Below are positions 59,592 through 59,777 of a stretch of 64,000 nt of DNA, in pieces. The translations under genes were made by a program, and so were the position numbers. The DNA is from Escherichia coli (GTDB taxonomy: Bacteria > Pseudomonadota > Gammaproteobacteria > Enterobacterales > Enterobacteriaceae). The DNA lies in the NCBI RefSeq assembly GCF_046105845.1, contig NZ_CP151004.1; one strand, given 5' to 3'. The notes under the pieces were generated by a model, which was given only the letters and a program-made list of their open reading frames with translations, did not search any database and had not been told where the DNA came from. Each line of letters starts with the position of its first letter. Position 1 is the stretch's first letter.

Positions 59592-59777
59592 AAGTTATCC
59601 TTACAATGTGTTTATCGCTTGCTAAGCATCGAGTGCGACGGAAATGCCAGAATAGCACTCTCCTGCATACACGCACCGATAGCCACTTTTTTTCGCCCCC
59701 CAAATGTAGACCAGACGGGGGGCGAAAGGGAAGACTCCAGGTACGACAAATCAGGCGTTAAATCACGTTTTCTGGTC

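What the first reader, a model, noticed from the sequence alone, without database searches (positions are those of the whole stretch)
59686..59725. GC hairpin with a flanking T-run in the hupA upstream region
tcgccccccaaatgtagaccagacggggggcga forms an 8-bp G/C stem, with the T-run on the wrong side to act as a canonical terminator for either strand. It lies between yjaG and hupA, where the hupA promoters are expected, and could be a protein-binding or structural element.
Basis: seen in the sequence. Interest (0 to 1): 0.2.

Follow-up and report, generated by a model that had tools for sequence, protein, structure and literature searches.

The report
Known hupA promoter, incidental hairpin
The G/C "hairpin" is a real inverted repeat, but it lies on the long-mapped core promoter and transcription start of the E. 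coli HU-alpha gene hupA, and comparison with about 80 related species gives no sign that the hairpin itself is under selection, so it is ordinary.

Summary
A perfect 11-bp inverted repeat (8 G/C plus 3 A/T pairs) has arms at 59691-59701 and 59717-59727, a 15-nt spacer and a 7-T run at 59687-59693. No whole-window shuffle produced a comparable repeat.

It is not a free-standing element. The window is E. coli with yjaG and hupA on the minus strand. The hupA start site (hupAp1, -105 from the ATG; Kohno 1990, Claret 1996, confirmed by 5' RACE in Mendoza-Vargas 2009) is window 59696, the last G of the G-run.
- The 5' arm is the promoter spacer (-31..-21).
- The "loop" holds the -10 hexamer TACATT.
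- The 3' arm is the G-rich discriminator plus +1..+6.
- The "T-run" is A7 at +4..+10 of the mRNA.

hupA mRNA therefore starts inside the 3' arm and cannot contain the hairpin.

Across 81 Enterobacterales the "loop" is invariant and the arms vary without compensation (79.2% paired against 79.3% in shuffles). Stability ranges from -24 to -8 kcal/mol. Term-seq lists no 3' end there.

Verdict: already known and of low interest. A small residual chance remains that the Escherichia-specific perfect repeat has a role in read-through RNA or as a DNA cruciform.

The parts
59727..59732 (-). Weak -35 hexamer of hupAp1 (TTCCCT, -36..-31; TTCACA in most other genera)
   Evidence: Position follows from the TSS at -105. 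The Mendoza-Vargas sigma-70 -35 box is tggaGTCTTCCCTttcg. Alignments show TTCACA in Kluyvera, Erwinia, Pantoea, Dickeya and others.
59717..59727 (-). 5' arm of the inverted repeat (sense TTTCGCCCCCC), which is the promoter spacer at -31..-21
   Evidence: positions relative to the TSS
59702..59716 (-). The 'loop' (sense GTCTGGTCTACATTT), -20..-6, which contains the -10 hexamer. TCTGGTCTACATTT is invariant in 36 distinct sequences.
59703..59708 (-). -10 hexamer TACATT (-12..-7) of hupAp1
   Evidence: It lies 7 nt upstream of the mapped TSS. The box ctggTCTACATTTGgggg scored 5.58 in Mendoza-Vargas 2009 supplement file 3. It is invariant in all aligned taxa, and TCTACATTT is still recognisable upstream of hupA in a 2.39-Mb AT-rich relative that has no C-run or G-run there.
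59691..59701 (-). 3' arm of the inverted repeat (sense GGGGGGCGAAA): discriminator G-run (-5..-1), the TSS and +2..+6
59696..59696 (-). hupAp1 transcription start (+1, G), 105 nt upstream of the ATG; MG1655 coordinate 4200176
   Evidence: Mendoza-Vargas 2009 Table 1 gives known TSS -105 (Claret 1996; Kohno 1990) equal to the 5' RACE result of -105 (supplement). Salmonella 5'-UTR constructs start at the homologous GCGAAAAAAGTGG. The E. coli hupA-5' RNA used by Stein 2020 is 110 nt.
59687..59693 (-).
59592..59696 (-). hupA 5' UTR (105 nt), nearly invariant across Enterobacteriaceae. The roughly 30 nt next to the ATG pair with the ProQ-dependent sRNA RaiZ in Salmonella.
59319..59591 (-). hupA coding sequence (HU-alpha, 90 aa)
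59778..60368 (-). yjaG coding sequence (DUF416), the upstream gene on the same strand, with no terminator between it and hupA
59270..59291 (-). hupA intrinsic terminator (stem plus T-tract), the only terminator-like site found in 59200-60450
   Evidence: the Term-seq 3' end at 4200605 agrees

Best explanation
The inverted repeat is the core of the known sigma-70 promoter hupAp1 of E. coli hupA (HU-alpha). RNA polymerase binds here. The C-run arm lies in the 18-bp spacer just downstream of a weak -35 (TTCCCT). The 15-nt 'loop' carries the -10 hexamer TACATT. The G-run arm is the G/C-rich discriminator, and its last G is the transcription start. The flanking homopolymer run is A7 at +4..+10 of the transcript. 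hupA mRNA begins inside the 3' arm, so the hairpin cannot exist in hupA mRNA made from this promoter. The complementarity of a conserved C-run and a conserved G-run is best read as a by-product of two promoter segments that are each conserved. It became a perfect 11-bp repeat only in Escherichia and a few other lineages. Shown here: the repeat, its identity with the mapped promoter, the conservation pattern and the absence of mapped 3' ends. Inferred: that the pairing potential has no function of its own.
For: 1. TSS. The known and re-mapped TSS is -105 from the ATG (Mendoza-Vargas 2009, PMC2760140, Table 1 and supplement file 3). That is window 59696, the last G of the G-run. Salmonella hupA 5'-UTR constructs start at the homologous GCGAAAAAAGTGGCTATCG (Smirnov 2017, PMC5391140, Appendix Table S2). 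The E. coli hupA-5' RNA used by Stein 2020 is 110 nt (PMC7367173).
2. Geometry. TACATT sits at -12..-7 and TTCCCT/TTCACA at -36..-31.
3. Conservation. The yjaG-hupA spacer is 186 +/- 1 nt in 78 Enterobacteriaceae loci. It is nearly invariant from the C-run to the ATG, while the yjaG-proximal 55 nt vary. Within the repeat, the loop/-10 region is invariant and the arms are the variable part.
4. No covariation. 79.2% of cells are paired against a shuffle mean of 79.3% (323 of 500 shuffles at least as high). Pair C22-G42 is broken in 12 of 36 distinct sequences. The outer U-A pairs 13-51 and 15-49 are broken in 20 and 23 of 36; the pair between them, 14-50, is intact in all 36.
5. Stability. The RNA fold of the 51-nt segment ranges from -24.4 to -8.0 kcal/mol (median -14.9) over 81 species. 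The DNA hairpin is -14 kcal/mol in E. coli (z -5.4) but only -4.9 to -6.0 (z -0.7 to -1.9) in Salmonella, Klebsiella, Erwinia and Dickeya.
6. Distant relative. A 2.39-Mb AT-rich genome keeps TCTACATTT upstream of hupA but has neither the C-run nor the G-run.
7. 3' ends and copy number. Term-seq (Adams 2021, PMC7815308) lists no 3' end at 4200000-4200199 in the files searched. The sequence is single-copy (median 1 place per E. coli genome) and matches no Rfam family.
Against: A perfect 11-bp G/C-rich repeat is statistically unusual: 0 of 20 whole-window shuffles gave one, and the DNA-fold z-score is -5.4. The C-run lies in a promoter spacer, a segment that is usually free to vary, yet it is nearly invariant across Enterobacteriaceae. 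The standard promoter model does not explain that. It leaves room for an extra constraint such as a bound regulator, a supercoiling response or pairing. Transcripts reading through from yjaG, which has no terminator, would contain the whole hairpin, and I have no data on them. I could not read the primary mapping papers (Kohno 1990; Claret and Rouviere-Yaniv 1996) and know them only through Mendoza-Vargas 2009.
Confidence: 0.85

Rival explanations
1. RNA element in read-through transcripts. Transcription from nfi/yjaG is not terminated before hupA. In those longer RNAs the -27 kcal/mol hairpin followed by A7 forms between the two cistrons. It could act as a processing or stability determinant, for example an RNase III stem, or an RNase E site in the A-rich tail with the stem protecting the yjaG 3' end.
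For: No terminator-like site lies between yjaG and hupA. The hairpin is strong in the sense RNA. A stem followed by an A/U-rich single strand resembles known RNase E contexts (established knowledge, not tested here).
Against: No 3' end appears at or near the hairpin (4200145-4200190) in the Term-seq lists searched. There is no covariation, and many genera carry a C-A mismatch in the middle of the stem. The existence and abundance of read-through RNA were not examined.
Confidence: 0.06
2. DNA cruciform or supercoiling sensor. Under negative supercoiling the repeat extrudes as a cruciform that sequesters the -10 region. HU, which prefers cruciform and distorted DNA, could bind it. This would give autoregulation or relaxation-induced expression of hupA.
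For: The repeat is perfect and centred on the core promoter. Both DNA strands fold well. hupA is reported to be activated by DNA relaxation (PMC8301835). HU binding to cruciform DNA is documented (Pinson 1999, cited in PMC2634741). 'Autogenous control' is the title of Kohno 1990, which I recall from memory and have not read.
Against: Arms of 11 bp with a 15-nt spacer would leave 30 nt unpaired, which is unfavourable for extrusion (inference from general cruciform energetics). The repeat is degraded in Salmonella, Klebsiella, Erwinia and Dickeya (DNA fold -4.9 to -6 kcal/mol, z near -1 to -2), although the promoter is otherwise almost identical. There is no compensatory change.
Confidence: 0.04
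3. Non-canonical (U-tract-less or Rho-assisted) terminator or pause site that ends yjaG transcription.
For: A strong G/C stem lies 50 nt after the yjaG stop codon.
Against: There is no U-tract on either strand. No mapped 3' end was found. Sitting on an active strong promoter is a sufficient explanation for its conservation.
Confidence: 0.02

Closest known systems
hupAp1, the RegulonDB/EcoCyc promoter of E. coli hupA (Kohno et al. 1990; Claret and Rouviere-Yaniv 1996)
   Same: Same locus, same strand and same TSS (-105 from the ATG). The finding's coordinates cover positions -30 to +11 of this promoter.
   Different: Nothing differs structurally. The only addition is the remark that the spacer C-run and the discriminator G-run are complementary. 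I did not find that remark in the papers I could read.
Rho-independent (intrinsic) terminator
   Same: A G/C-rich stem-loop next to a homopolymer run.
   Different: The run is on the 5' side on the plus strand, or is A rather than U on the minus strand. No 3' end is mapped there. The real hupA terminator is at 59291-59270.
Promoters with G/C-rich discriminators (stable-RNA or 'stringent' type; supercoiling-sensitive promoters)
   Same: The -6..-1 segment is TGGGGG, which is G/C-rich, and the -35 is suboptimal. hupA is FIS-activated and expressed early in growth.
   Different: The spacer is 18 bp rather than 16 bp. hupA is reported as relaxation-activated rather than dependent on high superhelicity. 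The ppGpp/DksA response was not examined here.
Enterobacterial repetitive palindromes (REP/BIME, ERIC)
   Same: An intergenic G/C-rich palindrome.
   Different: It is single-copy in E. coli genomes and has no sequence resemblance. By contrast, a genuine ERIC-like element is inserted in the Dickeya hupA leader.

Membership tests
sigma-70 promoter (hupAp1) | Experimentally mapped transcription start at the right distance downstream of a -10 element | tested here: met
   TSS at -105 is window 59696 (literature). Salmonella constructs start at the homologous base. TACATT ends 7 nt upstream.
sigma-70 promoter (hupAp1) | -10 and -35 hexamers resembling TATAAT and TTGACA, 16-18 bp apart | tested here: met
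   The -10 TACATT matches 4 of 6, including A2 and T6. The -35 TTCCCT matches 3 of 6 in E. coli, and TTCACA matches 5 of 6 in most genera. The spacer is 18 bp. The generic scan missed it because it requires at least 4 of 6 in each hexamer.
sigma-70 promoter (hupAp1) | Promoter elements conserved in orthologous positions | tested here: met
   TCTGGTCTACATTT is invariant in 36 distinct sequences from Enterobacteriaceae, Erwiniaceae and Dickeya. TCTACATTT is still present in an AT-rich relative.
Intrinsic terminator | U-tract immediately 3' of a G/C-rich stem on the transcribed strand | tested here: not met
   The stem is followed by A7 on the minus strand and by AAGGGAAG on the plus strand. There is no hit in the terminator scan.
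Intrinsic terminator | RNA 3' ends mapped at the site | tested here: not met
   Adams 2021 Term-seq tables contain no entry at 4200000-4200199. The entries in this region are at 4200251/253, 4200389 and 4200605.
Conserved structured RNA (cis-regulatory hairpin) | Base pairs maintained by compensatory substitutions | tested here: not met
   79.2% paired against 79.3% in shuffles, and a covariation score of 0.070 against 0.067 (190 of 500 shuffles at least as high).
Conserved structured RNA (cis-regulatory hairpin) | The structure lies within the transcript it regulates | tested here: not met
   hupA mRNA starts inside the 3' arm. Only hypothetical yjaG read-through RNA would contain the hairpin.
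Conserved structured RNA (cis-regulatory hairpin) | Match to a curated RNA family | tested here: not met
   An Rfam search at E up to 10 gave only chance microRNA hits far below the gathering scores.
Repetitive extragenic palindrome (REP/BIME/ERIC) | Many dispersed copies per genome | tested here: not met
   Median 1 place and at most 2 per genome in 5420 E. coli genomes.
Stringent-type promoter with G/C-rich discriminator | G/C-rich sequence between the -10 and +1 | tested here: met
   The -6..-1 segment is TGGGGG. In other genera one G is often A or T.
Stringent-type promoter with G/C-rich discriminator | Negative response to ppGpp/DksA and a short-lived open complex | not tested
   The papers I could read held no usable data.
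Cruciform-forming inverted repeat | Extrusion demonstrated on supercoiled DNA | not testable with these tools
   Only single-strand folding energies are available.

The most novel reading that the evidence does not exclude
In Escherichia the hupA core promoter has become a perfect 11-bp palindrome. It could extrude as a cruciform, or fold in read-through RNA. HU, which prefers cruciform DNA, or the level of supercoiling could then directly gate transcription of HU's own alpha subunit, giving a structural autoregulatory or supercoil-sensing switch.
Probability: 0.04. Interest if true: 0.5.

Novelty: already known. Interest (0 to 1): 0.07.

Why it matters
It matters little. The element is the textbook-mapped promoter of a well-studied nucleoid-protein gene. 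The result is mainly a caution for sequence-only scans: a statistically striking G/C hairpin can be two conserved promoter segments, a C-rich spacer and a G-rich discriminator, that happen to be complementary. One modest open point remains. It is unclear why the spacer C-run is so strictly conserved across Enterobacteriaceae, and whether it contributes to the reported FIS and supercoiling dependence of hupA.

Tried and rejected
- **Rfam.** A search of 59200-60000 found nothing real.
- **Promoter scan.** The generic scan found 0 sites because the -35 is weak, so the literature was needed.
- **TSS and 3'-end sources that gave nothing.** Thomason 2015 is not held. The Kim 2012 supplements have no hupA entry. 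Conway 2014 and Stein 2020 have no held supplements. No paper mentions both hupA and yjaG.
- **ppGpp and discriminator searches.** These returned nothing specific to the hupA promoter.
- **My first promoter guess.** I first read TGcTATTCT at 59649-59656 as the main promoter, with the A-run as an UP element. I dropped this. That site corresponds only to a minor 454-read 5' end at -52, and its key A is T in most other genera.
- **CRP site.** A reading of AAAACGTGATTTAACGCCTGA as a CRP site was considered and not pursued, because the right half-site is poor.
- **Distant YjaG relatives.** L087 ends before hupA. L089 has no adjacent hupA. The L088 spacer is AT-rich and cannot be aligned.
- **Antisense reading.** I noted that some mismatches (sense C-A) would be G-U on the plus strand. 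Others (sense U-G) become A-C, so neither strand is favoured.

Full report
**What is there**

The window is E. coli. The 241 nt around the finding are at least 99% identical in 5387 of 5420 complete E. coli genomes and are annotated yjaG / hupA. The MG1655 order is nfi-yjaG-hupA-yjaH, with zraP on the opposite strand. In the window these genes lie on the minus strand: yjaG 59778-60368 and hupA 59319-59591.

The described sequence is present. It is a perfect inverted repeat with 11-nt arms at 59691-59701 and 59717-59727, separated by 15 nt. The T7 run is 59687-59693.

The fold is strong on either strand. As RNA it is -27.3 and -25.6 kcal/mol, with z-scores of about -3.3 and -3.6. As DNA it is -14.0 and -13.3 kcal/mol, with z-scores of -5.4 and -4.1.

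No other repeat in the 64-kb window has arms of at least 11 bp with at least 8 G/C pairs. None of 20 dinucleotide-preserving shuffles of the window produced one. The homopolymer run is on the wrong side for a terminator on both strands. The scan finds only the real hupA terminator at 59291-59270.

**What it is**

Mendoza-Vargas et al. 2009 (PMC2760140) list hupA among their control genes. The known TSS of promoter p1 is -105 from the ATG (references Claret 1996 and Kohno 1990). Their directed 5' RACE also gave -105, a perfect match. Their supplement flags it as 'Known, hupAp1, distance 0' and gives the boxes tggaGTCTTCCCTttcg and ctggTCTACATTTGgggg.

Counting from the ATG at 59591, -105 is window 59696. 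That is the last G of the GGGGGG run, MG1655 coordinate 4200176.

Two independent sources agree:
- In Salmonella, Smirnov et al. 2017 (PMC5391140) cloned and transcribed the 'hupA 5' UTR' starting at GCGAAAAAAGTGGCTATCG.
- Stein et al. 2020 (PMC7367173) used a 110-nt E. coli hupA-5' RNA.

The anatomy on the sense (minus) strand is therefore:

| Feature | Sequence | Promoter position | Window |
|---|---|---|---|
| -35 hexamer | TTCCCT | -36..-31 | 59732-59727 |
| 5' arm (inside the 18-bp spacer) | TTTCGCCCCCC | -31..-21 | 59727-59717 |
| 'Loop' | GTCTGGTCTACATTT | -20..-6 | 59716-59702 |
| -10 hexamer (inside the 'loop') | TACATT | -12..-7 | 59708-59703 |
| 3' arm (discriminator, +1, +2..+6) | GGGGGGCGAAA | -5..+6 | 59701-59691 |

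hupA mRNA made from this promoter starts inside the 3' arm, so it cannot contain the hairpin.

**Conservation**

Using YjaG as a handle I fetched 80 loci, one per species, from Enterobacteriaceae. The yjaG-hupA spacer is 186 +/- 1 nt in all 78 loci that include hupA. It is almost invariant from the C-run down to the ATG, about 130 nt. The 55 nt next to yjaG vary freely. Erwinia, Pantoea, Paramixta and Dickeya keep the same promoter, with a better -35 of TTCACA.

Within the repeat the pattern is the reverse of what a structural hairpin shows. The 'loop' is invariant and the arms are the variable part:
- G to A or T inside the G-run in about half of the species.
- T to C and C to T, G or A in the outer part of the 5' arm.
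- None of these changes is compensated.

On 36 distinct sequences, 79.2% of cells are paired against 79.3% in column shuffles (323 of 500 shuffles at least as high). The covariation score is 0.070 against 0.067. The RNA folding energy of the equivalent 51-nt segment ranges from -24.4 to -8.0 kcal/mol over 81 species, with a median of -14.9.

As DNA the hairpin is exceptional only in E. coli at -14 kcal/mol. Salmonella, Klebsiella, Erwinia and Dickeya give -4.9 to -6.0 kcal/mol, with z-scores of -0.7 to -1.9. A more distant AT-rich 2.39-Mb genome keeps TCTACATTT upstream of hupA but has no C-run or G-run.

**Transcript ends**

The Term-seq tables of Adams et al. 2021 (PMC7815308) contain no 3' end between 4200000 and 4200199. 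They list 4200251/4200253 (inside the 5' UTR), 4200389 (inside hupA) and 4200605 (the terminator). The hairpin is therefore neither a terminator nor a stable processed 3' end under those conditions. The sequence is single-copy and matches no Rfam family.

**Mechanism**

Best supported, at about 0.85: this is RNA-polymerase-binding promoter DNA. The palindromic character comes from a conserved C-rich spacer facing a conserved G-rich discriminator, and it is perfected only in Escherichia and a few other lineages.

The literature I could read says that FIS activates hupA, that hupA is induced by DNA relaxation, and that the leader is repressed by the sRNA RaiZ with ProQ. A G/C-rich discriminator is the kind of element linked to supercoiling and ppGpp responses. 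I did not test that for hupA.

One thing the promoter model leaves unexplained is why a spacer C-run is so strictly conserved. That, together with the statistical rarity of the repeat, keeps small probabilities on three rivals:
- A role in yjaG read-through RNA, about 0.06.
- A cruciform, HU or supercoiling switch, about 0.04.
- A non-canonical terminator, about 0.02, which the Term-seq data largely exclude.

**Comparison and novelty**

The element is a member of an already described object, promoter hupAp1. It fails the defining tests for an intrinsic terminator, a covarying RNA structure and a repetitive palindrome. Novelty is 'already known' and interest is low.

Noticed in passing
L082 about 2218-2341 (Dickeya fangzhongdai CP094338.1, hupA 5' UTR): The Dickeya yjaG-hupA spacer is 311 nt rather than 186 nt. 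About 123 nt are inserted in the hupA leader just after GAGAGTGCTA. The insert contains AGTAAGTGAATGGGGTGAGCG and GAATCCCCGTGAGCTTAC, which match the ERIC2 and ERIC1R primer sequences as I recall them, so it looks like an ERIC element inside a highly conserved 5' UTR. Rfam gives only a sub-threshold V_AS5 hit (33.7 bits, E 1e-5).
   Followed up: partly
window 59592-59727: The spacer length is fixed at 186 +/- 1 nt, and about 130 nt from the promoter spacer to the hupA ATG are almost invariant across 78 Enterobacteriaceae species. That is far more than the roughly 30 nt known to pair with RaiZ. The reason for conservation of the rest of the 105-nt leader is unexplained.
   Followed up: partly
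window 59619-59621 (MG1655 4200251/4200253): Term-seq 3' ends (Adams 2021) lie 28-30 nt upstream of the hupA ATG, at the edge of the RaiZ pairing region. They may reflect processing or premature termination in the leader.
   Followed up: no
window 59643-59656: There is a minor 5' end at -52 (three 454 reads, Mendoza-Vargas 2009) downstream of an extended -10-like TGcTATTCT. In most other genera, and in one E. coli strain (L003), the hexamer reads TTTTCT. If this secondary promoter is real, it is essentially restricted to Escherichia.
   Followed up: partly
window 59763-59771: The upstream block AAAACGTGA (about -75..-67 relative to the hupA TSS), with further invariant positions to about -55, is conserved out to Erwinia and Dickeya. 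The flanks vary, which suggests a regulator site (FIS or CRP?). I did not identify it.
   Followed up: no
window 58045-58090: A perfect 17-bp inverted repeat, GAGTAAAAATGACTCGC...GCGAGTCATTTTTACTC, lies upstream of zraP. It is probably the ZraR (sigma-54 activator) binding site, from memory.
   Followed up: no
window 18795-18823, 40566-40596, 49968-50007, 52291-52328: These are four other perfect inverted repeats with arms of 11-12 bp. Several have A/T-run flanks and look like bidirectional terminators. They were not examined.
   Followed up: no
NZ_CP076235.1 (E. coli O157:H7 strain 9.1_Anguil), about window 59660: In this genome the 241-nt query matches in two separate places (first piece covers query 1-141). 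This suggests an insertion or rearrangement inside the hupA 5' UTR of that strain.
   Followed up: no
L005 2089-2091 (Escherichia sp. MOD1-EC7003): The yjaG stop codon position reads CAA instead of TAA, so YjaG would be extended into the spacer in this strain.
   Followed up: no
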